Below are positions 2,866 to 25,488 of a stretch of DNA of 32,000 nt, in pieces. The stretch is taken from assembly GCA_001552015.1 (NCBI GenBank), contig CP010514.1, positions 360,001 through 392,000 on the forward strand, given 5' to 3'. Numbering within the stretch: position 1 is the stretch's first letter; the number at the start of each line of letters is the position of its first letter. The DNA is from Candidatus Nanopusillus acidilobi. Its GTDB lineage: Archaea; Nanobdellota; Nanobdellia; Nanobdellales; Nanobdellaceae. The notes under the pieces were generated by a model. It was given only the letters and a program-made list of their open reading frames with translations. It was not told the DNA's origin and ran no database searches. Made by a program: the position numbers and the translations under genes.

Positions 2866-3042
2866 TTATAGTATATTATTTTTATATAAGATTTCTTTTT
2901 TCATTTTTCTTCTATAACCACCCCATTTATCATCAGGAGAAAATTTAGGAGGTATTACTCTAGATGTTTTATTACCACAAATCGGACAGATTTCTTTAAA
3001 TGTATATATTTTACAATTTTTACATTTTCTAATCTCTTTCAT
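2866..3042 (-). CDS. nop10: H/ACA RNP component Nop10 (missing from the supplied ORF track)
   Basis: Own translation, 58 aa: MKEIRKCKNCKIYTFKEICPICGNKTSRVIPPKFSPDDKWGGYRRKMKKEILYKNNIL. It has the CxxC...CxxC zinc ribbon plus the P.KFSP.DK.G.YRR signature of Nop10. It overlaps the aIF2alpha 3' end by 14 nt. Confidence 0.85.
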   Translation of the reverse strand: MKEIRKCKNCKIYTFKEICPICGNKTSRVIPPKFSPDDKWGGYRRKMKKEILYKNNIL

Positions 3043-3805
3043 ATTTATTTATTTCATAAATTACATTATAATTTTTAGCTTCTTTATTAATTAATTCTAG
3101 CATTTCTTTTTCCTTTTTTTGTAAATCAGATGGGCTTATAGTAACATATTTTAGCATATATGTAGGAGCTCCCAGATATTTTATCATTATATTTAGATCC
3201 TTTATTTTTTTAAGAAATTCCTTTATTTTATATATTCCATCACCATCTAAGCAATATGCCTGCATTATATATGTAAACTCATATTTTGGTGGATTTAGAT
3301 AATCAAGTATATATTTGTATAATAGATCTGAGTATTTTTTACTTATTTTATATTTATCTAAAACAGTTTTTCCATTTATATAAGCTTCTAAAAATACACT
3401 ATAAAGTTTGTTTTCTGGAACAATTTTAAATATTATCTCTTTTTCTAATTTATCCATATCTATATTTTCCTTTTCACTCATTATTTTCAATATATTATAA
3501 GCAGCCATCTCTCTTTTATATTCAAAAATCTTTGCTTTTTGTTTATTCTTATCAACTCTCTTTAACGATAAAGTAGCCAATCTATTTTGTACATCTACAT
3601 CTAATACTAAACATACAATCTTTTTACCTTCCCTAACTAAAATCCTTGGATTTGTAATTCTTCTATTTGATAATTCGTCTATTGGAATTATTCCATTAAA
3701 ATTCTCATATTCATCTAAGCTAACTTTTACATCTACATCTGATATATTATTTACTGTACATATAACATAATCATTCACCTTTGGAGGATCTTTTCTCTTA
3801 TACAT
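3029..3805 (-). CDS. eif2a: Translation initiation factor aIF2 alpha subunit
   Basis: 258 aa. The N-terminal S1/OB domain reads PKVNDYVICTVNNISDVDVKVSLDEYENFNGIIPIDELS...ILVREGKKIVCLVLDVD. It is followed by helical and alpha-beta domains of the expected length, and the conserved Nop10 gene lies downstream. Confidence 0.85.
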   Translation of the reverse strand: MYKRKDPPKVNDYVICTVNNISDVDVKVSLDEYENFNGIIPIDELSNRRITNPRILVREGKKIVCLVLDVDVQNRLATLSLKRVDKNKQKAKIFEYKREMAAYNILKIMSEKENIDMDKLEKEIIFKIVPENKLYSVFLEAYINGKTVLDKYKISKKYSDLLYKYILDYLNPPKYEFTYIMQAYCLDGDGIYKIKEFLKKIKDLNIMIKYLGAPTYMLKYVTISPSDLQKKEKEMLELINKEAKNYNVIYEINKYERD

Positions 3806-3848: not shown

Positions 3849-4829
3849 TTAGGTTTTAGTTACTGGGATATTATATGTAACCTCTTCATAACAATTATAT
3901 GAAAGATTCATTAAAATATATGCTGGTATTCCTATATTTGAATTAAGAAGATTTTGAATTTCTGGATTGCTTTGTGCTAATTGTTGAAGATTTATAATAC
4001 AAGATATTGAAGGTGAACTTATTGGAACATTTTGTGTTGGACTACATGAGAAACCTTCTCCCCCATTTGGTATATCTATTGGAGTTGTTCCGATAATACG
4101 TAATTCAGCATTTACATTAAAGGTAGCTTGACTATTAGAATATACATTACTAAAGCATCCAACAGAATCTTGGAAAGATATTGAGAAATATATATTTCCA
4201 TCAATTTCATTTACATTGATATTAGAAGATACTGGTGTTATTGGAGATGATGAATAATATACAGGCTCACTTAATGTTATTGAACTATTAGAATAATTTA
4301 ATTGTAGTGGAATTAATACATTCGTAACAACATTTGATACATTATATTCTACAACTATTGGTATTTGAGAAGGCACAGCCAGAATACCAGGACTTAAAGA
4401 AACTTCAATATTTCCAATAGTAGAATTTGAAGGAATAAGTTGATCAGAAGAGGAATTATAAGTTGCTGGTTCTGCATTAAAATTACCTGAGTAAGGAGAA
4501 GATAAAGTATAACTATTTACATAATATGAAACTTCTAATTGAGAATTTGACATTGTATAAATATTATTAACATAGATAAGAGGCAATGTATAATTTAAAC
4601 CACTTGATTCACTATAATTTAACGAAGAAGGTGCTTGAACATATATATATAAGTTTCCTGGCTGACTTACTGCCCATGAAGGTTGATATAAATTAGAACC
4701 TGAACTTCCGCTATTAAAAAATCCTGAATTTCCAAATCCAATGTTACCAATTGGACATGTAGAAAAATAAAATAGAGTAGTACCTGCAAATAATATAGGC
4801 AACAAATATATAAATCTTCCAGCTTTCAT
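3849..4829 (-). CDS. Secreted or membrane-anchored N/S/Y-rich protein (putative glycosylated surface protein)
   Basis: 326 aa. The N-terminus MKAGRFIYLLPILFAGTTLFYF is a short basic segment plus a hydrophobic helix. The rest is almost free of K/E and rich in N, S, Y, I, P, with 8 N-X-S/T sequons (counted by eye) and 5 Cys. I recognise no domain. Confidence 0.6.
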   Translation of the reverse strand: MKAGRFIYLLPILFAGTTLFYFSTCPIGNIGFGNSGFFNSGSSGSNLYQPSWAVSQPGNLYIYVQAPSSLNYSESSGLNYTLPLIYVNNIYTMSNSQLEVSYYVNSYTLSSPYSGNFNAEPATYNSSSDQLIPSNSTIGNIEVSLSPGILAVPSQIPIVVEYNVSNVVTNVLIPLQLNYSNSSITLSEPVYYSSSPITPVSSNINVNEIDGNIYFSISFQDSVGCFSNVYSNSQATFNVNAELRIIGTTPIDIPNGGEGFSCSPTQNVPISSPSISCIINLQQLAQSNPEIQNLLNSNIGIPAYILMNLSYNCYEEVTYNIPVTKT

Positions 4830-4872
4830 TAATTATATTTTTACTTTATTAATTATAAACTTTATCATAATA

Positions 4873-5145
4873 TTAGCCCGAAGTATTTGAATTATTTTGA
4901 TTATTAGATGTATATAAATTATTTAAACTAACATTTTCATTTAAGGCAGTTTGAATAATATTAAAAGCTTGTTGGGCATCATTGATAAATTGTACTATAC
5001 CATTTTCGACACTCTGGAACATTTCATTATTTTCCATATATGCAAGAATTTGATTACGATATAAATAAGCTACTATTATTAAAATTATTAGAATTAATAA
5101 AAAAATCAATCCACCGCCAGAGCTTTTAGCTCTTCCTTTCTTCAT
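4873..5145 (-). CDS. Small membrane-anchored N/Q-rich protein
   Basis: The track ORF 4873..5151 begins with TTG. The first ATG is at 5145, giving MKKGRAKSSGGGLIFLLILIILIIVAYL... (90 aa). It has one TM helix and an extracytoplasmic N/Q-rich tail ending ...NNQNNSNTSG, with 3 sequons. Confidence 0.5.
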   Translation of the reverse strand: MKKGRAKSSGGGLIFLLILIILIIVAYLYRNQILAYMENNEMFQSVENGIVQFINDAQQAFNIIQTALNENVSLNNLYTSNNQNNSNTSG

Positions 5146-5177
5146 AAACAAATTATAAATTTATTTATTTATAAGTT

Positions 5178-6230
5178 TTAGGATATCTGCAAATAATCTA
5201 TCTTAAGATAATTGTCTGTCTTTATTTCTAATAGATTCTCTGGCAATAAACAATTAGATATATTTACTACATAAGCCCCAACAGACGAACTTATATTATA
5301 TATACAATTATTATTTAGTATAACTTCTCCAGAGCCCTGACTTACTATAATATCCAATATGTAATTTGTTAAATTATTTGGAAATGCTATATAAAATATA
5401 TTGCTCTTTGCTTCTACATATAGATTATTTATATTAACTGGATAAGATGATATCAAACTGATACTATTTTCTCCAATATTTAAATATGGAGTTAAATAAA
5501 ATAAGTTAGAACATGAAGATAAAGGAATTGACAATCCATTTATAATTAATTCTACATTTTGAGGAGAATATGGACAAAAATCATAGAACATATATATATC
5601 TCCAGATATATAATAATAGCTAAAATTTAATGATGAAAACTCTAGATAATTTATATTTATATTATTTAATATTCCATTTCCATTAAATATTATACTAGTT
5701 GGAGAAAACTCTATTTTTAGCTCATTATTTCCATTATATAAATAATTTGGAGAAACAAAAATACCTATTTCTCCATTTTGACATCCAGAATATACTTCAT
5801 AATTATTTACATATATATCGAACTTACCATTATTACATGTAGAATAAGCAGTAATATTTATTCCATCATAATTGTTAGAATAATAGAAATATAAGCTCTT
5901 ACTAACTGTTCCATAAAATATATTTGTTTCAAAATTCAAAGTTCCTAAATTAATATAATATACTGGAATATAACTTCCTATTGTATAATTGCTTGTTATA
6001 TAATAATAATTCTGACTCTCCGATAATTGTATATTTTGAAAGATATATTGATTTCTCATACTTGTATTTGAAAAATTTGAAGAAGGATATAATGTTACAT
6101 TAGTTCCATTAAACAATTGTTGTATTAAGGATTGTTTATATTGATATGGAATAATAGCCCAATATACAAAAATTACTATACCTAATAATATAAAGAATAT
6201 ACCTAAACTTGTCATTTGTAATTTTTTCAT
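5178..6230 (-). CDS. Membrane-anchored N/Y/S-rich protein (putative glycosylated surface protein)
   Basis: 350 aa. The N-terminus is MKKLQMTSLGIFFILLGIVIFVYWAII. The remainder is K/E-poor and N/Y/S/I-rich with a beta-strand-like alternating pattern. It has 10 N-X-S/T sequons (counted by eye) and 6 Cys in three spaced pairs. I recognise no domain. Confidence 0.6.
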   Translation of the reverse strand: MKKLQMTSLGIFFILLGIVIFVYWAIIPYQYKQSLIQQLFNGTNVTLYPSSNFSNTSMRNQYIFQNIQLSESQNYYYITSNYTIGSYIPVYYINLGTLNFETNIFYGTVSKSLYFYYSNNYDGINITAYSTCNNGKFDIYVNNYEVYSGCQNGEIGIFVSPNYLYNGNNELKIEFSPTSIIFNGNGILNNININYLEFSSLNFSYYYISGDIYMFYDFCPYSPQNVELIINGLSIPLSSCSNLFYLTPYLNIGENSISLISSYPVNINNLYVEAKSNIFYIAFPNNLTNYILDIIVSQGSGEVILNNNCIYNISSSVGAYVVNISNCLLPENLLEIKTDNYLKIDYLQIS

Positions 6231-6255: not shown

Positions 6256-7272
6256 TTATAATTTATACCTTAATTTTCCAACAATACAGAATCTATCAAT
6301 TAATTCAAAATTACTGACATTATTATTTACAAAATATATTTCAGCATTTATTTTATCCAAAATATTAAATAAATTTATAATTTTATCAATATTATTTTCT
6401 TCTTTCATTTTTTTAAAACATTCTTCAGAAATTAAAATATATTCTATATTATTATACATTGCATTATTATATACCTCATCATATCCAAATGCTACCATAT
6501 TTTTTTGCATTAAATATAATATTTCTTCTATTAATTTATTTATTTCTAAAATTTCTAAATTTTTTAATGTCTCATAATATTCTGTTCTTCTAACAAATTC
6601 ATATATTCCATTTACACCTCCGCTAGATACTTTATATATTTTTATATTTTTTATATTTAATTTATCCTTTATATAATCATAAAATTCTTCAGGATAAAAT
6701 AATGGACCAATTATACATAGAAATTTAATATCATAATCCTTTAGTGTATCTAAAAATTCTGAAAATATTTTATATAATTTTGCTTTTTCTTCAGGATCTC
6801 CTTTGTTTATCTTATAATATTCCTCTTTTATAATTTTTATTCCATTATTTATTATACCAAGAGCTATCTCATTATTATCTATAGATATTACAAAGATATT
6901 TTCTTTTTTTCTAGAAGATTTTTCCAATATTTTTTCTTCATATTTTTTTATTTCCTCCTTTTTATATAATGTAAATTCTGTAGATATTCTTATATCAAAT
7001 GTATGATAATGTCCAATAGAATCTTTATCACTTGAATCAATTATTTTTCCAGAAATCCTTAATGAATCTTTATATTCAGAAAATTTTATACTCTCAACTT
7101 CTATTTTTATTTTTATTTTCTTCTTTTCTTTTTCATTTTCAAATTTTAATGTTCTATAATCATATCCTTCTATAATATCTCCTAAATTAACTATTTTATA
7201 TAAATACAATAAGTCTACTTCATCTTCTATCTTAATTTTTATTGTCTTCTTATCTATTATTTCATATTTCAT
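6256..7272 (-). CDS. pelA: mRNA surveillance protein Pelota (Dom34 homologue)
   Basis: 338 aa. The N-terminal Sm-like domain (EDEVDLLYLYKIVNLGDIIEGYDYR...LRISGKIID...IGHYHTFDI) is followed by central and eRF1-like C-terminal domains (GPLFYPEEF..., VAFGYDEV, ILISEE). Confidence 0.85.
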   Translation of the reverse strand: MKYEIIDKKTIKIKIEDEVDLLYLYKIVNLGDIIEGYDYRTLKFENEKEKKKIKIKIEVESIKFSEYKDSLRISGKIIDSSDKDSIGHYHTFDIRISTEFTLYKKEEIKKYEEKILEKSSRKKENIFVISIDNNEIALGIINNGIKIIKEEYYKINKGDPEEKAKLYKIFSEFLDTLKDYDIKFLCIIGPLFYPEEFYDYIKDKLNIKNIKIYKVSSGGVNGIYEFVRRTEYYETLKNLEILEINKLIEEILYLMQKNMVAFGYDEVYNNAMYNNIEYILISEECFKKMKEENNIDKIINLFNILDKINAEIYFVNNNVSNFELIDRFCIVGKLRYKL

Positions 7273-8252
7273 ATTAGTAAGAATATTAAAGAAAGAAATA
7301 TTGGAGGAACAAAAGGTGCTCCTTCCTTTACTTTTACTTTTATATCATTATATTCTCCCAATTTCCTTAATATACTAACTTCTTCTTTTGAAAGACCAAA
7401 CCTTCCAATAAACAGTTTATTTTGAAATATATGATAAAATATTATAATAAATGGCATAGAATAATAAAATAAAACTTCATTTAAAAAATAAAATATTAGT
7501 GGCAAAATTGCAATTATTAAGATAACAAGAGAATTTATTAATTTATTATTTTTCTTAAATTTTAATATATATTTATTCCCATTTTCATAAATATCGAAAT
7601 ATTTACTTAATATTTCTTTATCTTCTTCCTTTATACTATTAATTTCTATTCTATCTTCTATCCAATCCCCTTCAACCAATTCATTTACATTTCTTATAAA
7701 TGTTAATTTTTCATCTAAATCCTTTGATATATATCTAAATAGAAAATATGGGATATATATTAAAATTAAAGAAATTAATAGATAATAAATATCAAAATAC
7801 AAAAAGAAAAGATTGATAAAAAATATAGAAACTAATATTAGGATAATATTAAAAATATAAACATAATACTTTTTTCTATTTTCTTTATATACTTTAATAG
7901 CTTCCAAATTATGAAATACAAATGCGAACAATACTAGATAAAATAAAAATAATAATATCTTATATAGAGGAAAGAAAGATAATAGAAAGAATATTGAAAA
8001 GAAAATAAATAGATCTCCAATAGCTAGCAATCTAAATAAATACAATAATATAAAAAATAGAAGAATAAAATATGAAAATATAAAATTCACTGGATAAATA
8101 TTTTGAACAATTAAATATGAGAAATAGAATATATTAAATATCAATAAAATATATATTATTATATCATCTACAGACTTATATTTTATATCCTGATATGATG
8201 AATATGCCAATATTATTATATCAAATATCAATAAAGGAAGCATCTCATTCAT
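7269..8252 (-). CDS. Polytopic membrane protein, A24-family prepilin/preflagellin aspartyl peptidase-like (FlaK/PibD-like)
   Basis: 327 aa. Candidate catalytic Asp 1 lies in AYSSYQDIKYKSVDD (compare the FlaK-type S.QD...R.I.D). Candidate Asp 2 lies in LLAIGDLFIF (a degenerate GxGD). The C-terminus is EGAPFVPPIF. A soluble insert of about 60 aa (KDLDEKLTF...KFKKNNK) sits between TM blocks, as in FlaK. There is a 4-nt overlap with pelA. Confidence 0.55.
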   Translation of the reverse strand: MNEMLPLLIFDIIILAYSSYQDIKYKSVDDIIIYILLIFNIFYFSYLIVQNIYPVNFIFSYFILLFFILLYLFRLLAIGDLFIFFSIFFLLSFFPLYKILLFLFYLVLFAFVFHNLEAIKVYKENRKKYYVYIFNIILILVSIFFINLFFLYFDIYYLLISLILIYIPYFLFRYISKDLDEKLTFIRNVNELVEGDWIEDRIEINSIKEEDKEILSKYFDIYENGNKYILKFKKNNKLINSLVILIIAILPLIFYFLNEVLFYYSMPFIIIFYHIFQNKLFIGRFGLSKEEVSILRKLGEYNDIKVKVKEGAPFVPPIFLSLIFLLI

Positions 8253-8369: not shown

Positions 8370-8726
8370 ATGCCATTAATAATACCATCACCAGAATATG
8401 CTAAAAGAAGGAAAATATTACAAGTTGATAATAAAATTAAAAAATTGGAAAAAGAAAGAAGTGGAAAAATAACTTTAGTATTAAAAAAAGAAATAGACCT
8501 AAATAATGTTGATGAATCATTAAAATTTATATCAATGTTAAAAGAATTGGAAGGGAGAAATTTCTTTGATGAATTATATATTGTTAAATCTGACAAAGTA
8601 TATGATTATTTAGATATAGAAAAAGAATTAGATCAAAAAAATATAGAAAAGAAGAAACTGATAAAATTGTATGATATAGTAAGTAGACTTACAGATATAA
8701 TAGATAAAATTAAAAAAATCTATTAG
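8370..8726 (+). CDS. Hypothetical protein
   Basis: 118 aa, K/E/I-rich like the other genes, preferred over the antisense 81-aa ORF 8351..8596. Its 3' end overlaps the convergent coiled-coil gene by 4 nt. I recognise no domain. Confidence 0.45.
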   Translation: MPLIIPSPEYAKRRKILQVDNKIKKLEKERSGKITLVLKKEIDLNNVDESLKFISMLKELEGRNFFDELYIVKSDKVYDYLDIEKELDQKNIEKKKLIKLYDIVSRLTDIIDKIKKIY

Positions 8727-9886
8727 TATTTGTATTCGTTTTCTTCTTTTATATTTTTAGATAATAGTAATCTCTTTATATTTTCTATATCATTTTCTAA
8801 TATTTTTATTTTCTCTATTTCATTTATTATATATTCAAAATTAGATAAATCAATGAAATTCTCTATTTTCTTTATTTTATTCATTAAATTTTCATAATCT
8901 GATAATACAGATTCTAATATATCTTTAGAATCATATAATTCTGTTTTTACCTTTCTTATTTCCTCCCTAATATTATTTAGGCTTTCTTCCAATTTATTAT
9001 ATTTTTCATTAATTTCTTCTATTTTATCCATTTCGTTTATTTTAGATCTCAAATCTGTAACCAAATTATTTAATTCCTCAAATAATGCATATATACTATT
9101 TAATCTATTTTCAAAGTTTATATATTTGTTATATAATTCTTCATAAGCTTTAAATTGTTTTACATTTTTAATATCATCATTTGTTAATTGTAATAAGTAA
9201 TTCATATTACTTATTTTATTATTAATTTCAGAATATTTTTCTTCATATTTCTTTTCTATCTCTTCCAATTTACTATTAACATTATATAGATCTTTTTCCC
9301 TTATTTCATTTATCATTTCAGATATTTTATTATATTGCAATAGATCTTTAGATAAATTATCTATTGTTTTGGATACTAAATTTGCCAAATTATCAACTTT
9401 TGCTTTTAGATCATTAAAATCATTAATACTTGTATATGAGTCTTCTAATTTATTTAATCTATCTATTGAATCTTCTAATTTATTCCTTAATTCTTTTATA
9501 TTATTTATAACATCCTCATATTGTGTTATTTTATTACTTAGAGAATTTATATCAAGTTCTAATTTATTTATTTTTGATTTTATATTTACTATAGTAGAAT
9601 AATCAACAAAGTTTTTCTGATTATTTTCTAATACATCTACTTTTATTTTCAAATCATTTAAATATCTTATTTTATCCAATAAATCTTCATTTAATATTTC
9701 TTTATAATTATCTAATACTTTTTCTACATTTTCTAATTCTTCTTTCAAGGCTTTTAATTGATTATTAAATTCTTCTCTATTTACAAAATTATTCAAGCTT
9801 CTTTTTATTTCTGATATTCTATTATTAAAATTTTTTACATATGAAAAAAATTCATCAATTAGATTTTCATCTTTATTTAAATCCAT
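8723..9886 (-). CDS. Long coiled-coil protein, unknown function
   Basis: 387 aa with heptad-like N/K/E/L/I periodicity almost throughout, no TM segment and no Cys. An internal 14-nt direct repeat (tcttctaatttatt at 9442-9455 and 9470-9483) encodes NKLEDS twice. Confidence 0.6.
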   Translation of the reverse strand: MDLNKDENLIDEFFSYVKNFNNRISEIKRSLNNFVNREEFNNQLKALKEELENVEKVLDNYKEILNEDLLDKIRYLNDLKIKVDVLENNQKNFVDYSTIVNIKSKINKLELDINSLSNKITQYEDVINNIKELRNKLEDSIDRLNKLEDSYTSINDFNDLKAKVDNLANLVSKTIDNLSKDLLQYNKISEMINEIREKDLYNVNSKLEEIEKKYEEKYSEINNKISNMNYLLQLTNDDIKNVKQFKAYEELYNKYINFENRLNSIYALFEELNNLVTDLRSKINEMDKIEEINEKYNKLEESLNNIREEIRKVKTELYDSKDILESVLSDYENLMNKIKKIENFIDLSNFEYIINEIEKIKILENDIENIKRLLLSKNIKEENEYKY

Positions 9887-9921: not shown

Positions 9922-10239
9922 CTATATATTTTTTAATAATTCTTTTCTTATATCATCAATTTCTTTCTTTATCATATCATATTTCAATTCTAAATTATAT
10001 AATCTTTTTTTAATATCATCTATATCTTTAAATTTTAACCTTATTTCCAATAAAAGCATTTTTAATTCTTTCAATAATTTATTATATTCATTATCTTTAT
10101 CAAATACATTTTTTAATTTCATATATTTCTCATAAATTTCATCTTTTATTTTTTTATTTTTTTCTAATTCTTCTTTTAAATCCTTAATCTTATTTTCTAA
10201 ATCTTCTATGATTTTTTCATATTCATTTATTTCATCCAT
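9922..10239 (-). CDS. Small coiled-coil protein, unknown function
   Basis: 105 aa, entirely helical and charged (IEDLENKIKDLKEELEKNKK...). Its start overlaps the polB stop by 8 nt. Confidence 0.5.
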   Translation of the reverse strand: MDEINEYEKIIEDLENKIKDLKEELEKNKKIKDEIYEKYMKLKNVFDKDNEYNKLLKELKMLLLEIRLKFKDIDDIKKRLYNLELKYDMIKKEIDDIRKELLKNI

Positions 10240-14131: not shown

Positions 14132-15301
14132 TTATTTATTATAATTCTTTAAAACATAATTTAAGAAAAGGAAGGAAATTCCTAAAATAATAAATGATAA
14201 AAACAAACCATATTGAACAGAAATATAATAAAGTAACAAAGATCCTATTGCACCACCCAAATTTCTAAATAAATATATATTTCCAAATTTTTGTGGATAA
14301 TTTAATATTATATAATTATCAAAGAAATATTGAAACATTGTCCATGAAAATGCAGCTAATATAAATAATACTGTTAGTATTATACCATTATATATTTTTG
14401 ATAAAGAAAATATTAAAGACAATAATATTATTATTCCTATAAAAAATCTAGAAAATATTCCAATTTTTATATTTCTAAAATTAATTTCCCTTTTATATAT
14501 TTTATATAATATTGAAGTATACAATCCATTTATAAATAATAAAAATGGAAAAATTGTAGATAAAGAAAATACATTTACAGAATAAACTAAAGATGCCCAA
14601 ACTAATGAAAATCCAATCAAAACAAATAGATTATATAATTCTAAATATCCTATTCTTAACTTTTTTATATTTAATGGAAATACTAAACCTTCAAATATAG
14701 GATATAGAGTTCCAAATTTATCTATATTATTTTCTGCAATTGAAAACATTTTATCAATTCTTTTCAATAAATTTAATTCATATGCGGATGAAAATAAAAA
14801 TAAATATAATTTCCTATATATAATAATTATCGTAGATAATAGCAATAAAATAAAAACTATATATATGTTATAAATCAGGGAAAGAAAAATAAGAGAAATT
14901 TGAGGTATTATTTCTCCAAAAGTCCAATAAATATTAAAATAGAAATTTAAGCCTACATCTCTATAATATAGTAAAAATGAAAAATATGTAGATGATGTTG
15001 TAATATTAAACAAGAAGAATGATAATATTAGTAAATAAATATTTGGATAAACTAATAGTAGAGAAGATAGGAGAGGCCCTATTACACCAATCATTGCAAT
15101 ATTAATATAATTTTTCTCATTTATTCTAATATTTCCAAATATTGCTGAACTTATTATTGATCCTATATAAGATATAGAAATTAAAGAATAATATATATTA
15201 GATGGGAAATTAAAATAATATGGGTAAACAAAGAATAAACTATTTAATATTCCCCCAACTAGATTATTACTAATTAAAATAATTTTTTCTTTATAATTCA
15301 T
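14132..15301 (-). CDS. Polytopic membrane protein, possible MFS-type transporter
   Basis: 389 aa. Two blocks of about six hydrophobic helices are separated by a charged loop (SSAYELNLLKRIDKMFSIAENNIDKFG). I see no diagnostic MFS motif, so the call rests on topology only. Confidence 0.4.
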   Translation of the reverse strand: MNYKEKIILISNNLVGGILNSLFFVYPYYFNFPSNIYYSLISISYIGSIISSAIFGNIRINEKNYINIAMIGVIGPLLSSLLLVYPNIYLLILSFFLFNITTSSTYFSFLLYYRDVGLNFYFNIYWTFGEIIPQISLIFLSLIYNIYIVFILLLLSTIIIIYRKLYLFLFSSAYELNLLKRIDKMFSIAENNIDKFGTLYPIFEGLVFPLNIKKLRIGYLELYNLFVLIGFSLVWASLVYSVNVFSLSTIFPFLLFINGLYTSILYKIYKREINFRNIKIGIFSRFFIGIIILLSLIFSLSKIYNGIILTVLFILAAFSWTMFQYFFDNYIILNYPQKFGNIYLFRNLGGAIGSLLLYYISVQYGLFLSFIILGISFLFLNYVLKNYNK

Positions 15302-15918
15302 TTTATTATATCTCTAAATTTTTCTTTTAATATATCTGCCAAAGCTATGCCTATAGCAATTGAAATTGAAATAACTATTCCACCAAAAAGTATTATAAAC
15401 ATATAGAGAAGAACTGGAGATAAAAGATTTAGATAGCTAAGTGTTAATACTAATACAAAAAATAAAACAATAAATCTTATTAAGCCTAATATAAAGTTTG
15501 CATATCTAAAATTTTGGATTAATGGATATAAAAAAGATCTCAATATAAATTCCATCATTGCATATGAAATTATTATTACAACAATTATTATCAATAGACT
15601 GTTTAATATATTAAAAACTAGGATTCCTATATTTCTAACATATGGAACTATGTAAAATGAAAATCCAATAAAATAAAAGTATATAAAGAACTTAACTATA
15701 TTTACTAGTAGATCTGTAAGAGAATATGCTGTCATTATTTGTTTATCATGTAGCCATTTATCTAGACCAAGAATTTTTTTTAGTATTATCTTAAGTATTA
15801 ATGCTGTAAGTTTTCCTATAAAATATCCAATTATAATAATAGAGACAGAAATTATTATTATTTTTAATATATTATAGTTAAATATCTGAAATATAAGATT
15901 GATAATACTTTCCAGCAT
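15298..15918 (-). CDS. Integral membrane protein, unknown function
   Basis: 206 aa with about 5-6 TM helices. Its stop overlaps the start of the downstream membrane gene (4 nt). Confidence 0.5.
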   Translation of the reverse strand: MLESIINLIFQIFNYNILKIIIISVSIIIIGYFIGKLTALILKIILKKILGLDKWLHDKQIMTAYSLTDLLVNIVKFFIYFYFIGFSFYIVPYVRNIGILVFNILNSLLIIIVVIIISYAMMEFILRSFLYPLIQNFRYANFILGLIRFIVLFFVLVLTLSYLNLLSPVLLYMFIILFGGIVISISIAIGIALADILKEKFRDIIK

Positions 15919-18233: not shown

Positions 18234-18650
18234 ATGAATAATATAGATATAACAAAAGAATTTCTATACACGCTCTTATTGTTATTTTCTATAGAAACAT
18301 TCTTAGACCTATTATCATTTATTATATATCCATCAATTTTTCCAAATTATATTAATATTTCCGTTGATATTTTCTTATTTATAATTCTTTTATTATCTAT
18401 ATTTTCAATTTATTTAATAAAAAAAGATAATTTATACGGTTATATAATTTCATTGTTTATATCAATATTGATTTTATTTTCTTCTTTTACATTAAATTAT
18501 AATAATATAATAGATATAGCAGTAAGAAATGTAGCATCTAATTATGGTATATATCCAAACCCAATAATATTGTTCTTTGGTATTTCAATATTTTTAATAA
18601 GTATAAGAAAAATAATTCAATTAAGAAAAACTAAAATTTCTTCAACTTAG
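18234..18650 (+). CDS. Small integral membrane protein, unknown function
   Basis: 138 aa with about 4 TM helices. Its 3' end overlaps the convergent rpoN by 20 nt. Confidence 0.45.
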
Positions 18651-22414: not shown

Positions 22415-22489
22415 TGCCCCCGAGGGGATTCGAACCCCCGATCTCCAGGACCGAAGCCCGGAATGTTGTCCTGGCTACACTACGGGGGC
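22415..22489 (-). tRNA. tRNA-Arg (anticodon UCG)
   Basis: Reverse complement: GCCCCCGTAGTGTAGCCAGGACAACATTCCGGGCTTCGGTCCTGGAGATCGGGGGTTCGAATCCCCTCGGGGGCA. The anticodon stem is CCGGG/CCTGG with loop CTTCGGT. No intron and no CCA. Its 5' 15 nt lie inside the upstream same-strand CDS. Confidence 0.9.
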
Positions 22490-24001
22490 TTCATTATATA
22501 TTATTTTTTGATATGAATTAAAATATTCATCAAAGTATTGATCAAATGTATAATTTATATTATATTTCTTTGCTATTTTATTATATATATCTACCAATCT
22601 TTTTGGATAATTTTTATCAGGAATTGAATTTGTTAATTTATGATATTCAAATATCTTAGAAAATGTTTTTTCTCTTTTTACATTTAATTCAGTATTTTCT
22701 TCATTATCTACATTATTTGCTTCATATGTTGATTCAAATTTTCCAAAATTAAATCCTGAATATTCAATTGGATTCATCGTATTCATTAAATAATCTGAAA
22801 AATATTTATCATATATTAAATTTGGTAAAAATAATCCCAAAGAAATATATGGATTAAATACTGTAGAGTTTTTATTATTAAATGGTATATAAACTGATAT
22901 ATCATTTAGATCAAATAAATTAGAAACATATCTTATATCTTTTCCTAATAATGATAATTCTCCATATGCATCTTTTTCTATTAAATATTTTGCAATATTA
23001 TAATTTACTTCTGAAGATTTATCTAAATTATTAAAATCAAATAATGATTTATTTAAATCTTTAATTGATACTTTTCCAATATATATTCCTTCTAAAATTG
23101 TTCCTAAAATATATCCTAAATATAATGTATCTAAACCATATCTATTTGATAAATCAATTAGATCCCTTATATATTCTTCATTTAATATTCCTAAAAATGG
23201 TCCTAAAATATTGAAGGGTTCATATGGATATTCTTTCTTTAAATTATTAACTAAAGGATAAATATAATCATCAAATATCTTTTTATTTTCTTCTTCAGAT
23301 AAATATATGTTCTTATAATTTAAAATAGGGATCCTATCCGATATAGATTGATAAAAATCTTTTATTGATTCTTTTTCTTCTTCTATTAATTCTATATCTA
23401 ATCTTTTATTTTCAATTTTATTATCTCCTCCAATTGATAAACCTGATATATTATGGTATCTATATAATACTGATCCAATTCCACCCTTTGTAACTTTTAT
23501 TTTATTATTTTCAAATATAATTAAATTTCCATATATTGTAAATTTTGATCCCAATCCATTTAACAAAATAATAAAATCTTTTCCACCATATATATCTTTC
23601 AGAGTATTATATAATTCTTCTTTTCTTTTATATATATCTTCTGATATATCATTTTCTAAAAATATAACATTATCATTTTCTATAATTAAAAAATATTTTT
23701 TATCTAATTTTCCATATAGAACTATTATATCATTACCTGTTAATTTAATATATTTACCAAAAGAAGATAAATTAATATCTAAAGAACCTGTTATTGGAGA
23801 TCTATAAATAATTAATGAATTTATATTATCTTTATTTTTTTGATGCCCAACGGAAAATATTGTTAAATTATTTTCAAATGGATCTTTTTCATATGTCTTA
23901 TAATCAAAATGCAAATTAATTGAATGATCCAATGTTTTTGAATCAGTTACATAATTTTTTGATTCTTTTTTATATAAATCTATAAACAATACTCTAATCA
24001 T
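22475..24001 (-). CDS. Aldehyde:ferredoxin oxidoreductase (AOR)-family-like protein, cysteine-free and probably non-redox
   Basis: 508 aa. The N-terminal domain matches the AOR pattern: DPFENNLTIFSVG...YRSPITGSLDINLSSFGKYIKLTGNDIIVLYGKLDKKYFLIIENDNVIF versus DP...N.L.ia.GPLTG...kSPLTG...GG.FG..LK.AGYDaIvveGka.kPvyl.I.d..v. Further matches are KGGIGSVLYRYHNISGLSIGG versus GRGGvGAVMGSKNLKAIaV.G, and YGLDTLYLGYILGTILE versus lGLDTIStG..lA.AME. The protein contains no Cys, so the four [4Fe-4S] ligands are absent. Confidence 0.6.
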   Translation of the reverse strand: MIRVLFIDLYKKESKNYVTDSKTLDHSINLHFDYKTYEKDPFENNLTIFSVGHQKNKDNINSLIIYRSPITGSLDINLSSFGKYIKLTGNDIIVLYGKLDKKYFLIIENDNVIFLENDISEDIYKRKEELYNTLKDIYGGKDFIILLNGLGSKFTIYGNLIIFENNKIKVTKGGIGSVLYRYHNISGLSIGGDNKIENKRLDIELIEEEKESIKDFYQSISDRIPILNYKNIYLSEEENKKIFDDYIYPLVNNLKKEYPYEPFNILGPFLGILNEEYIRDLIDLSNRYGLDTLYLGYILGTILEGIYIGKVSIKDLNKSLFDFNNLDKSSEVNYNIAKYLIEKDAYGELSLLGKDIRYVSNLFDLNDISVYIPFNNKNSTVFNPYISLGLFLPNLIYDKYFSDYLMNTMNPIEYSGFNFGKFESTYEANNVDNEENTELNVKREKTFSKIFEYHKLTNSIPDKNYPKRLVDIYNKIAKKYNINYTFDQYFDEYFNSYQKIIYNEAPVV

Positions 24002-24996: not shown

Positions 24997-25488
24997 TTAA
25001 CAACAATGTAAATTTTCTTTATTATTTTTTGAAATCTTTAGTTTTTTAATATCTTTTCTTTTATTCAATCCTAATAAAAATATTAAATTAACTATAAACA
25101 AAATATCACTAACAATTAATAGAATTTCTCCAAATTCAAATATATTTAATCTAAATATTGGAGCAAGAGTTGCAACTAAAATTGCAAAAGAACCTGTACT
25201 ACATCCAACTAAACATGCTTGAAATCCGGCAAAACCAAATATTGCAGAAATAAATGATAAAATATTTCCTGCGTAAAATTTCCTATAATTAATTATCATA
25301 AAAGATATTAAAGCAAAATTTAAAGAAAATAAAATTACATATGAACATGCAAGGATTTTTATATAAATTGAAGCTAATAACAAACCCAAAAATATTGATT
25401 TAATATAAAAATAACCAATTAGAAAAAATATTATAATTAAAATAATTCCAATTTTACTTTTTATCATATCTTTAAAAATGTTATTCAT
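24997..25488 (-). CDS. Integral membrane protein with intramembrane and C-terminal Cys motifs, unknown function
   Basis: The track ORF starts at a TTG (25503). The first ATG is at 25488, giving MNNIFKDMIKSKIGIILIII.... It has about 4-5 TM helices, a CxxxC inside a helix (FQACLVGCSTG), and a C-terminal tail ...KENLHCC. Confidence 0.45.
   Translation of the reverse strand: MNNIFKDMIKSKIGIILIIIFFLIGYFYIKSIFLGLLLASIYIKILACSYVILFSLNFALISFMIINYRKFYAGNILSFISAIFGFAGFQACLVGCSTGSFAILVATLAPIFRLNIFEFGEILLIVSDILFIVNLIFLLGLNKRKDIKKLKISKNNKENLHCC

What the first reader, a model, noticed from the sequence alone, without database searches (positions are those of the whole stretch)
3849..6230. Three-gene island of sequon-dense N/S/Y-rich surface proteins inside a housekeeping gene string
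Three consecutive minus-strand genes (350, 90 and 326 aa) sit between pelota and aIF2alpha. Each starts with a short basic N-terminus followed by a single hydrophobic helix (MKKLQMTSLGIFFILLGIVIFV, MKKGRAKSSGGGLIFLLILIILII, MKAGRFIYLLPILFAGTTLFYF). Their composition differs sharply from every neighbouring protein. Lys and Glu are almost absent, while N, S, Y, I and G dominate. By eye I count 10, 3 and 8 N-X-S/T glycosylation sequons, and the two large proteins have 6 and 5 Cys. I recognise no known domain in any of them. If the genome belongs to a reduced, host-dependent archaeon, as the rest of the window suggests, exposed glycoproteins are the prime candidates for envelope structure or host-cell attachment. 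Such proteins are typically lineage-specific and undescribed. The cluster lies two genes downstream of an A24 peptidase-like gene on the same strand.
Basis: partly seen in the sequence, partly recalled or inferred. Interest (0 to 1): 0.7.

Follow-up and report, generated by a model that had tools for sequence, protein, structure and literature searches.

The report
Conserved DPANN envelope-protein cassette beside pelota
The three odd-looking genes are real, exported, acid-adapted envelope proteins of a Nanopusillus nanoarchaeon. They are not a lineage-specific insertion: they are the trimmed local version of an undescribed cassette (a pilin-like protein, a membrane protein and lipoprotein-type proteins) kept next to the pelota gene across DPANN archaea.

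Summary
Three minus-strand genes lie between pelota and aIF2alpha: A (350 aa), B (90 aa) and C (326 aa). They carry 10/3/8 sequons and 6/0/5 Cys, with K+E of 4-8% against about 20% in neighbouring proteins. No Pfam, NCBIfam or PDB sequence match was found. The genes are not an inserted island. The order A24 peptidase-pelota-A-B-(C)-(D)-aIF2alpha holds in all 14 nanoarchaeal loci examined. A homologue of A also lies beside pelota in distant DPANN MAGs. The three "hydrophobic helices" are three different things. A belongs to a family whose distant members start with a canonical class III (prepilin) signal, [KR][GA]|QAAAG. Nanopusillus keeps K(-2) and Q(+1) but has Leu at -1. Cys25 of C aligns with the Cys of a canonical LAGC lipobox in an orthologue. 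B is the N-terminal remnant of a 408-aa, 8-Cys protein. Sequon density follows from composition, though several sites are positionally conserved. dN/dS is 0.16 (A), 0.38 (B) and 0.25 (C), against 0.08-0.10 for the flanking genes, so all three are under purifying selection. Models show all-beta ectodomains: jelly-roll, lectin-like for A and tandem beta-sandwich for C. The most likely reading is a membrane-tethered envelope assembly. A role in host attachment is untested.

The parts
7269..8252 (-). Divergent archaeal A24 (FlaK/PibD-type) class III signal peptidase candidate, 327 aa, polytopic. Likely processing enzyme for A and for archaellins.
   Evidence: Pfam Peptidase_A24 scores E 1e-3, below the cut-off. 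Of 7 orthologues, 5 hit Peptidase_A24, 3 hit Arc_PepC and 2 hit Arc_PepC_II, all weakly. Invariant I78-G79-D80 and P313-F314-x-P316 motifs. Syntenic in all 14 nanoarchaeal loci. The N. acidilobi gene table lists it as Nps_02085, a 7-TM protein, and lists no other prepilin peptidase.
6256..7272 (-). Pelota (aDom34). A context anchor that lies beside gene A in every locus examined.
   Evidence: Pfam eRF1_1/2/3. Adjacent to A in 14 near-clade loci and 4 far-clade loci, and within 3 kb in a fifth.
5178..6230 (-). Gene A: 350-aa pilin-like (class-III-type N-terminus), all-beta, jelly-roll ectodomain protein with 6 invariant Cys.
6150..6230 (-). N-terminus of A (residues 1-27, MKKL|QMTSLGIFFILLGIVIFVYWAII): basic leader, invariant Gln5, hydrophobic helix. 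Homologous position to the [KR][GA]|Q cleavage site of distant relatives.
   Evidence: Translation. N-terminal survey: the far clade is canonical in 30/31. The near clade has K/R at -2 and Q at +1 in 29/29, but -1 is L/Y/S/N/T/H/G. The AF2 model has helices at 3-26 and 29-43.
5181..6053 (-). Ectodomain of A (residues 60-350): beta-strands only. Three repeats of a Cys-pair motif (C132/C150, C219/C240, C309/C327). Sequons conserved at N41, N44, N81, N125 and N286.
   Evidence: AF2 pLDDT 78. Foldseek hits to galactose-binding-like and CBM jelly-rolls at E 2e-6 to 1e-4, but TM only about 0.2. Internal repeat hhalign E 5e-5 to 2e-4. Invariant Cys. Sequon conservation.
4873..5145 (-). Gene B: 90-aa bitopic remnant (basic N-terminus, TM helix, short helical segment, N/S/Q-rich tail). 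It is the N-terminal module of a 408-449-aa, 8-Cys protein found in other Nanoarchaeota.
   Evidence: BLAST to the 408-aa protein of L003, E 8e-4. B-long HMM hits the L020 and L019 orthologues. Length is 90-124 aa in all Nanopusillus and Nanobsidianus, and 168 aa in YN1. dN/dS 0.38.
3849..4829 (-). Gene C: 326-aa lipoprotein-derived, all-beta (tandem beta-sandwich) protein with 5 invariant Cys.
4755..4829 (-). Signal region of C (residues 1-25, MKAGRFIYLLPILFAGTTLFYFSTC), ending in invariant Cys25 (codon 4755-4757) within a degenerate lipobox F-S-T-C. A Gly/Ser/Asn-rich linker follows.
   Evidence: Translation. Cys25 is invariant. It aligns with the Cys of IIFLAGC in orthologue L020. Paralogue D shows the same pattern. 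The odd Cys count (1+4) is conserved. AF2 residues 1-45 are low-confidence and the rest has pLDDT above 85.
3029..3805 (-). aIF2alpha, the downstream boundary of the cassette. It begins the conserved aIF2alpha-Nop10-PAC2 string.
   Evidence: Pfam EIF_2_alpha and S1. Synteny.

Best explanation
The three genes are the Nanopusillus version of an ancient, vertically inherited envelope cassette of nanoarchaea (A-B-C-D). The cassette is fixed between an A24 signal peptidase-pelota pair and the aIF2alpha-Nop10-PAC2 string.

Shown:
- A belongs to a DPANN-wide family of type-IV-pilin-like proteins. It has a short basic leader, an invariant Gln, a hydrophobic N-terminal helix, a flexible sequon-bearing linker and an all-beta ectodomain built from three Cys-pair repeats.
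- B is the retained N-terminal module (TM plus helix) of a larger Cys-rich bitopic protein.
- C, like D (lost here), descends from a lipoprotein. Its Cys25 is the positional homologue of a lipobox Cys.
- All three are under purifying selection.
- Their charge-poor, N/S/Y-rich composition occurs in no other non-membrane protein of the window.

Inferred mechanism:
- All three are exported through the membrane and stay tethered to its outer face. A is held by its pilin-type helix, possibly after the leader is clipped before Gln5 by the adjacent A24 peptidase. B is held by its TM helix. C is held by a modified Cys25 or by an uncleaved signal.
- Their ectodomains are stabilised by disulfides and by N-glycans at the conserved sequons.
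- Together they form an extracytoplasmic assembly between the membrane and the S-layer or at the cell surface. The jelly-roll, lectin-like modules of A probably bind glycan (own envelope or partner cell).
- The assembly is a core envelope component and not a host-range determinant.
For: Reality and selection: orthologues occur in 11 species-level genomes and many metagenomes. dN/dS is 0.16 (A), 0.38 (B) and 0.25 (C), against 0.10 and 0.08 for pelota and aIF2alpha.

Synteny: A24-pelota-A-B-(C)-(D)-aIF2alpha in all 14 near-clade loci. A lies beside pelota in 4 of 5 far-clade loci and within 3 kb in the fifth.

Pilin-like nature of A: the profile search finds 19 representative clusters. hhalign of A against the far clade gives probability 94.7%, E 6e-8 over 335 columns. 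The far clade has [KR][GA]|QAAAG in 30/31. The near clade keeps K/R(-2) and Q(+1) in 29/29. The model has a long N-terminal helix, then a disordered linker, then beta-strands only.

Lipoprotein origin of C and D: HMM orthology to L020 C (E 2e-20) and D (E 3e-12), which carry LAGC. The Cys residues align. L019 and the far loci carry xAGC, IIGC, LVGC or LVSC lipoproteins at the same position. Lipoproteins and AliA are reported as prevalent in DPANN (PMC12462473).

Extracytoplasmic location: Cys sets are invariant. Sequons are positionally conserved: A N41 in 12/12 and N125 in 11/12; C N163 in 11/11. K+E is 4-8% with a non-hydrophobic body. WGA lectin labels the N. acidilobi surface (PMC4935971).

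Fold: jelly-roll, GBD or CBM-like hits for A. Distant members give weak matching Pfam hints: BetaGal_ABD2, CBM-like, GBD-like. C is a confident all-beta model, pTM 0.77.

Core rather than host-specific: A is 57% identical to its Nanobdella orthologue, against 56% for pelota, although the hosts differ.
Against: - The window protein fails the canonical class III motif, with Leu at -1 (G, A or S expected from established knowledge of A24 specificity). Cleavage is therefore doubtful.
- The lipobox of C (F-S-T-C) is non-canonical. arCOG02177 (AliA) does not appear in the N. acidilobi gene table. Lipidation may have been lost.
- No type IV filament ATPase or platform gene lies in the window.
- Fold matches have low TM-scores (about 0.2) and are generic.
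- Homology of the far-clade B and C analogues to B and C is not significant.
- There is no expression evidence. None of the three has a signal in the N. acidilobi proteome, although that is expected from their 0-2 usable tryptic peptides.
- Physical interaction among A, B and C is inferred only from gene linkage.
Confidence: 0.6

Rival explanations
1. Host-recognition or attachment proteins. A, B and C are exposed glycoprotein adhesins, or parts of the cone/portal/filament 'attachment organelle' seen in YN1, YN4 and Nanobdella, and they mediate contact with the host cell.
For: The protein components of the attachment organelle are explicitly unknown (PMC11420986; 2026 preprint). A has orthologues in YN1 and Nanobdella. 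'Hypothetical external' single-TM proteins are the class with the highest non-synonymous SNP density in Nanoarchaeota populations (PMC6142677). B and C evolve 3-4 times faster than the flanking genes. The folds are lectin-like or Ig-like, as in many adhesins.
Against: A is as conserved as pelota across genera with different hosts. A also occurs in distant DPANN MAGs. YN1 has the organelle but lacks C and D and has only a short B. All dN/dS values are well below 1. No localisation data exist.
Confidence: 0.17
2. Plain signal-anchored membrane proteins. In Nanopusillaceae the ancestral class III site of A and the lipobox of C have decayed, so neither is processed. The N-terminal segments act only as uncleaved TM anchors, independent of the A24 peptidase and of any pilus or lipidation machinery.
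For: The -1 residue of A is L, Y, S, N, T or H in the near clade. The lipobox of C and D is F-[SAE]-[TSVI]-C, not L-A-G-C. No arCOG02177 entry appears in the N. acidilobi table. No filament-assembly genes lie nearby.
Against: K/R(-2), Gln(+1) and Cys25 are invariant despite 40-60% overall divergence, which implies the sites are still read by something. The A24-like gene stays syntenic and selected, with dN/dS 0.15. The odd, conserved Cys count in C and D fits a modified or otherwise engaged N-terminal Cys.
Confidence: 0.3
3. Bindosome-like nutrient capture. A is a class-III-signal binding protein, like the Sulfolobus sugar-binding proteins, mounted on a pilus-like base. It captures glycans or host-derived solutes for uptake.
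For: Class III signal proteins include substrate-binding proteins and not only pilins (2026 TFF preprint). The ectodomain of A resembles carbohydrate-binding jelly-rolls.
Against: No ABC transporter or permease lies next to the cassette in any locus. The fold is not a periplasmic-binding-protein fold.
Confidence: 0.08
4. Chance ORFs or decaying pseudogenes in an AT-rich genome.
For: No domain hits. No proteome signal. B is truncated relative to its homologues.
Against: Full-length orthologues have invariant Cys and motif columns across more than 40% divergence. dN/dS is 0.16-0.38. The AF2 models are confident.
Confidence: 0.02

Closest known systems
Archaeal class III signal peptide proteins (type IV pilin-like proteins; substrates of the A24 peptidases FlaK, PibD and EppA)
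   Same: A has a short basic leader, Lys at -2, Gln at +1 (as in many archaeal pilins), a hydrophobic helix of about 22 residues at the extreme N-terminus, and a beta-rich C-terminal domain. An A24-like peptidase gene is in the same gene string. Distant homologues have the textbook [KR][GA]|Q site.
   Different: The -1 residue is Leu here (Tyr, Ser, Asn, Thr or His in relatives) and not Gly or Ala. The ectodomain (about 290 aa of jelly-roll repeats behind a disordered linker) is much larger than a typical pilin head. No assembly ATPase or platform gene is adjacent. No match to pilin Pfam or NCBIfam models.
Archaeal lipobox lipoproteins (AliA/AliB-dependent; PMC12462473)
   Same: C (and D in relatives) has a basic n-region, an h-region, an invariant Cys, a Ser/Gly/Asn-rich linker and a globular domain. 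Orthologues in L020 and L019 and the analogues in far DPANN loci carry canonical LAGC-type lipoboxes at the aligned position.
   Different: In Nanopusillaceae the box is F-S-T-C, F-A-V-C, F-E-T-C or F-S-I-C, which fails the [LVI][ASTVI][GAS]C rule at -3 and -1. No AliA arCOG is listed for N. acidilobi. Lipidation is unproven.
Carbohydrate-binding jelly-roll modules (galactose-binding-domain-like or CBM domains of GH35 beta-galactosidases and BcsB; PA14 and F5/8-C-type domains of phage tail proteins)
   Same: These are the best Foldseek matches for the ectodomain of A (E 2e-6 to 1e-4). Weak Pfam hints of the same kind appear in distant family members.
   Different: TM-scores are about 0.2 and sequence identity 7-15%. 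No catalytic domain is attached. No binding residues could be identified. The resemblance is at fold-class level only.
'Hypothetical external' proteins of Nanoarchaeota (Jarett et al. 2018, PMC6142677)
   Same: The operational class is the same: unannotated proteins with a single N-terminal TM helix, predicted to be surface-exposed and more variable than housekeeping genes.
   Different: That paper treats the class statistically. It does not describe this cassette, its synteny or its signal types. A is among the more conserved members, not the fast-evolving ones.

Membership tests
Class III signal peptide / type IV pilin-like protein (gene A) | Short positively charged leader ending in [KR] at -2 and G/A(/S) at -1, directly before the hydrophobic stretch | tested here: not met
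   The window sequence is MKKL|QMTSLG..., so -2 is K but -1 is L. No FlaFind-like match in 0/21 near-clade proteins and in 1/13 genome orthologues (Nanobdella only, KG|QTVL).
Class III signal peptide / type IV pilin-like protein (gene A) | Hydrophobic alpha-helix of about 20 residues at the extreme N-terminus, followed by a globular beta-rich domain | tested here: met
   AF2 helices at 3-26 and 29-43, then beta-strands only from residue 60. The hydrophobic window starts at residue 3-6.
Class III signal peptide / type IV pilin-like protein (gene A) | Homology to proteins with a canonical class III site | tested here: met
   The far clade has [KR][GA]|Q in 30/31. hhalign probability 94.7%, E 6e-8, 335 columns. 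hmmsearch E 5e-7 to 1e-3 against 1.8 billion proteins.
Class III signal peptide / type IV pilin-like protein (gene A) | A cognate A24 peptidase encoded in the genome | tested here: inconclusive
   The gene at 7269-8252 has sub-threshold Peptidase_A24, Arc_PepC and Arc_PepC_II hits and conserved GD and PFxP motifs. No PDB sequence hit.
Class III signal peptide / type IV pilin-like protein (gene A) | Leader removed by the peptidase; incorporation into a filament built by an ATPase and platform protein | not testable with these tools
   This needs N-terminal mass spectrometry and microscopy. No assembly ATPase or platform gene lies in the 32-kb window.
Lipobox lipoprotein (gene C) | Signal peptide ending in [LVI][ASTVI][GAS]C | tested here: not met
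   The window has L-F-Y-F-S-T-C, with F at -3 and T at -1.
Lipobox lipoprotein (gene C) | Invariant Cys at the end of the h-region, homologous to a canonical lipobox Cys | tested here: met
   Cys25 is invariant in 18/18. It aligns with IIFLAGC of orthologue L020 (HMM E 2e-20). The same holds for paralogue D.
Lipobox lipoprotein (gene C) | Lipidation machinery (AliA/arCOG02177) present and the Cys lipid-modified | tested here: inconclusive
   arCOG02177 is absent from the published N. acidilobi gene table. That is an annotation look-up and not a homology search. The modification itself is not testable here.
N-glycosylated archaeal surface protein | N-X-S/T sequons enriched beyond composition | tested here: not met
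   Observed 10/3/8 against shuffle means of 7.8/2.0/7.9 (P = 0.23/0.31/0.56).
N-glycosylated archaeal surface protein | Sequons conserved in position among orthologues | tested here: met
   A: N41 12/12, N125 11/12, N44, N81 and N286 10/12. C: N163 11/11, N308 10/11. Occupancy is not testable here.
S-layer subunit | The lattice-forming main envelope protein of the organism | tested here: not met
   The predicted S-layer protein of N. acidilobi is a different gene, Nps760. The cassette genes correspond to Nps_02065 to Nps_02075. No similarity to solved S-layer proteins.
Galactose-binding-domain-like / CBM jelly-roll (ectodomain of A) | Fold superposes on known carbohydrate-binding jelly-rolls | tested here: inconclusive

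The most novel reading that the evidence does not exclude
The A-B-C(-D) cassette, with its syntenic A24 peptidase, encodes a previously unrecognised, DPANN-wide envelope machine built around a pilin-like subunit. The processing site of that subunit has escaped the universal Gly/Ala(-1) rule in thermophilic nanoarchaea. On this reading the peptidase would have co-evolved a new specificity. In Nanobdellota the machine would form part of the portal or filament of the attachment organelle that bridges symbiont and host cytoplasm.
Probability: 0.1. Interest if true: 0.85.

Novelty: new variant of a known kind. Interest (0 to 1): 0.5.

Why it matters
DPANN archaea live by physical contact with hosts, yet almost none of their envelope proteins have an assigned role. 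The papers on the attachment organelle state that its components are unknown.

This analysis turns three anonymous ORFs into a defined cassette with testable biochemistry:
- Is A clipped before Gln5 despite Leu at -1?
- Is Cys25 of C lipidated although the lipobox has decayed and AliA is not annotated?

It also shows that the core gene (A) has stayed beside pelota across the DPANN lineages sampled. That gives experimenters with Nanobdella, YN1/YN4 or Nanopusillus co-cultures a short, conserved candidate list for envelope or contact structures. It also flags possible non-canonical specificities of archaeal signal-processing enzymes.

Tried and rejected
- Paralogy of A and C: rejected. BLASTP finds no similarity, and profile comparison matches only within the signal peptide.
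- Canonical class III signal in B: no consistent [KR][GA] site across orthologues.
- Homology of the far-clade polytopic protein and lipoprotein to B and C: hhalign E 0.02 and 0.11, and the Cys spacing differs. I treat them only as positional analogues.
- Foldseek against PDB and BFVD: only generic jelly-roll or Ig-like hits with low TM.
- Sequence search of PDB with profiles of A, C and the A24 protein: nothing.
- Proteomic evidence: the N. acidilobi table shows no signal for Nps_02065 to Nps_02075. Pelota and aIF2alpha are also blank, and A and C give 2 and 0 usable tryptic peptides, so this is uninformative.
- Glycoproteome evidence: the Nakagawa et al. 2024 paper (J Bacteriol 206:e00205-24) is not held. 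The held supplement of the YN4 preprint covers only the host. I could not map the YN4 glycoproteins YN4_326 and YN4_730 to this cassette.
- Locus-tag literature search: nothing relevant.
- Presence in Nanoarchaeum equitans: could not be tested.
- Sigma-70 promoter and terminator scan: not run, because it is inappropriate for archaea and for a genome of 22% GC.


Full report
**1. What is there**

The window has about 22% GC. Its proteins are 77-96% identical to those of Candidatus Nanopusillus and Nanobsidianus.

Three minus-strand ORFs lie between pelota (6256-7272) and aIF2alpha (3029-3805):
- A: 5178-6230, 350 aa.
- B: 4873-5145, 90 aa.
- C: 3849-4829, 326 aa.

Spacing is tight. The A24-like gene overlaps pelota by 4 bp. 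Gaps of 25, 32, 43 and 43 bp then follow down to aIF2alpha.

K+E is 6.3/7.8/4.3%, against 20.1 +/- 6.9% for 30 other proteins of the window. N+S+Y gives z = 2.2-3.9. The other low-charge proteins in the window are polytopic membrane proteins with GRAVY near +1. The bodies of A, B and C are not hydrophobic. Nothing reaches threshold in Pfam, NCBIfam or PDB sequence searches.

**2. The genes are real and selected**

A has seven 90%-identity clusters and C has thirty-four in the protein collection. A profile search of 1.8 billion representatives finds 14 full-length relatives of A at E < 1e-30, and five more distant ones.

All six Cys of A and all five of C are invariant.

Among eight Nanopusillus and Nanobsidianus genomes, mean NG86 dN/dS is as follows:

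| Gene | dN/dS |
|---|---|
| aIF2alpha | 0.08 |
| pelota | 0.10 |
| A24-like | 0.15 |
| A | 0.16 |
| C | 0.25 |
| B | 0.38 |

All three cassette genes are therefore under purifying selection. A evolves about twice as fast as the translation factors, and B and C three to four times as fast.

**3. It is not an island**

The order A24-like, pelota, A, B, (C), (D), aIF2alpha, Nop10, PAC2 is found in every nanoarchaeal locus I could read. These include Nanopusillus spp., Nanobsidianus stetteri, Nanobdella aerobiophila MJ1, strain YN1, two Nanopusillaceae MAGs and two further thermophilic lineages (L019, L020).

What varies is the content of the cassette:

| Lineage | Cassette content |
|---|---|
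| Nanobdella, KM4331 MAGs, L020 | A (346-349 aa), B (408-416 aa, 8 Cys), C (318-328 aa), D (284-292 aa, 7 Cys) |
| Nanopusillus, Nanobsidianus | A, short B (90-124 aa, no Cys), C; D lost |
| YN1 | A and a 168-aa B only |
| L019 | five genes |

**4. Three different N-termini**

*(a) Gene A.* The distant relatives (385-423 aa, from many DPANN MAGs; one is labelled 'Nanoarchaeota archaeon' by NCBI) begin with [KR][GA]|QAAAGAAVLLAIIAG in 30 of 31 cases. That is a textbook archaeal class III (prepilin-type) signal. Homology between the Nanopusillaceae A proteins and this clade is supported by hhalign (probability 94.7%, E 6e-8, 335 columns).

In the thermophilic clade, K/R at -2 and Gln at +1 are kept in 29 of 29 sequences. 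The -1 residue is Leu (this window), Tyr, Ser, Asn, Thr or His, and is Gly only in Nanobdella. From established knowledge of A24 peptidases, -1 should be Gly, Ala or Ser. The window protein therefore fails that defining feature, yet the flanking positions are still constrained.

*(b) Gene C.* The hydrophobic segment ends in an invariant Cys25 (LFYFSTC). A Gly/Ser/Asn-rich stretch follows, which AF2 leaves unstructured. In the L020 orthologue the aligned residues are IIFLAGC, a canonical lipobox. The same holds for paralogue D: FFFSIC or LFYFSSC against LLFLAGC. L019 carries three xAGC proteins here. The far DPANN loci carry an IIGC, LVGC, LAGC or LVSC protein at the equivalent position. C and D have odd Cys counts (5 and 7), with the N-terminal Cys as the unpaired one. 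C is thus lipoprotein-derived, with a decayed lipobox.

Lipoproteins and the lipidation enzyme AliA (arCOG02177) are reported as common in DPANN 'with some gaps' (PMC12462473). arCOG02177 does not occur in the published N. acidilobi gene table. This hints that lipidation may have been lost, but it is not a proper test.

*(c) Gene B.* B is a plain bitopic remnant.

**5. The A24-like gene**

The 327-aa polytopic protein at 7269-8252 hits Peptidase_A24 only below threshold. Of seven orthologues, five hit Peptidase_A24, three hit Arc_PepC and two hit Arc_PepC_II. I-G-D80 and P313-F-x-P316 are invariant.

The N. acidilobi table lists it as a 7-TM unknown (Nps_02085) and lists no other prepilin peptidase, although the organism has archaellum genes. 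It is probably the cell's class III signal peptidase. Its constant linkage to A is consistent with A being a substrate, but does not prove it.

**6. Folds**

*Gene A.* The AF2 model has mean pLDDT 78 and pTM 0.52. It shows helices at 3-26 and 29-43, a disordered sequon-bearing linker (residues 40-59), and then only beta-strands.

Three stretches share a motif with a Cys pair: C132/C150, C219/C240 and C309/C327. Pairwise hhalign gives E 5e-5 to 2e-4.

Foldseek finds jelly-roll, carbohydrate-binding-type domains at E 2e-6 to 1e-4, but TM is only about 0.2. The hits include GH35 all-beta domains, BcsB, and PA14, F5/8-C and CUB domains of phage tail proteins. Distant family members give weak matching Pfam hints: BetaGal_ABD2, CBM-like and GBD-like.

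*Gene C.* The AF2 model has pLDDT 81 and pTM 0.77. It is a confident all-beta protein with only generic Ig-like, arrestin-like or pilin-like matches.

**7. Glycosylation**

Sequon density is what the N/S/T-rich composition gives by chance. Several sequons are nevertheless fixed in position across orthologues down to 57% (A) and 38% (C) identity. The surface of N. acidilobi binds WGA lectin (PMC4935971). N-glycoproteins have been detected in related strains, but I could not map them to this cassette. Glycosylation is likely but unproven.

**8. Pelota linkage**

A lies directly downstream of pelota in all 14 near-clade loci. It lies divergently adjacent in four of five far-clade loci. In the fifth, an IS element separates the two genes. 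I have no functional explanation for this and record it as unexplained conserved synteny.

**9. Interpretation**

The evidence best supports a membrane-tethered, disulfide-stabilised, probably glycosylated extracytoplasmic assembly that is a core envelope feature of nanoarchaea:
- A is a pilin-like stalk carrying lectin-like modules.
- C is a lipoprotein-type partner.
- B is a reduced membrane adaptor.

The charge-poor composition fits exposure to the hot acidic medium (N. acidilobi grows at pH 3.6 and 82 C). This link is an inference from general knowledge of thermoacidophile surface proteins.

The adhesin or attachment-organelle reading remains possible, because the organelle's proteins are unknown. 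Three observations count against it. A is conserved across genera with different hosts. A also occurs in distant DPANN. YN1 has lost C and D yet still builds the organelle.

It is open whether the N-termini are still processed, or now serve only as uncleaved anchors.

**10. Novelty and score**

The kinds of protein involved are known: class-III-signal surface proteins and lipoproteins. I found no description of this family, of its cassette, of its fixed position beside pelota, or of the departures from the Gly/Ala(-1) and lipobox rules.

I rate it a new variant of a known kind. It is of moderate interest, mainly to people working on DPANN cell envelopes and archaeal protein-processing enzymes.

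Noticed in passing
window 6256-7272 with 5178-6230; loci L005-L023: Pelota and gene A are neighbours in every locus where the region is on the contig. They are co-directional in 14 nanoarchaeal loci and divergent in 4 distant DPANN loci, and an IS element separates them in a fifth. No functional reason is apparent.
   Followed up: partly
window 4873-5145; L012:9052-10278; L013:9040-9546: Gene B has been cut down from about 408 aa (8 Cys) to 90-124 aa in Nanopusillus and Nanobsidianus, and to 168 aa in YN1. D is lost in both, and C is also lost in YN1. The deletion is clean, leaving only 43 bp to the next gene. The remnant is still under some constraint (dN/dS 0.38).
   Followed up: yes
P0026, P0034, P0036; L008:9743-10756; L011:9308-10381: Some public gene calls for C start 13-31 codons too early (MIKFLINKVNIYL...), which hides the signal peptide. 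The YN1 call for B (168 aa) begins in a Tyr/Asn low-complexity run and probably also starts too early.
   Followed up: partly
window 8723-9886 and 9922-10239: Two all-coiled-coil proteins (387 and 105 aa) lie upstream of the A24-like gene and are syntenic in all relatives. The N. acidilobi table calls the larger one 'Chromosome segregation ATPase' (Nps_02095), and it is detected in the proteome. Pfam finds no ATPase domain, only coiled-coil noise.
   Followed up: no
window 22475-24001: A 508-aa protein matches aldehyde:ferredoxin oxidoreductase domains only marginally: AFOR_N at E 2e-7 just clears its cut-off (31.5 vs 29.8 bits) and AFOR_C at E 4e-5 falls below it (23.2 vs 27 bits). It also has 6 sequons. 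It may be a degenerate or repurposed AOR-like protein.
   Followed up: no
window 14132-15918, 18234-18650, 24997-25488: Four membrane proteins with no Pfam hits: 389 aa, 206 aa, 138 aa, and 163 aa with 5 Cys. The first two overlap by 4 bp and follow RtcB.
   Followed up: no
L016:6813-7868: In a distant DPANN locus, the gene just upstream of the A homologue encodes a 351-aa protein with 15 sequons. It has a C-terminal PEF-hydrophobic-KRK tail resembling an archaeosortase-type (PEF/PGF-CTERM) sorting signal.
   Followed up: no
L016, L021, L023 (downstream of the cassette analogue): A bacterial-type NAD-dependent glycerol-3-phosphate dehydrogenase (GpsA-like) gene and a glutaredoxin gene follow the A/polytopic/lipoprotein trio in several distant DPANN loci.
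   Followed up: no
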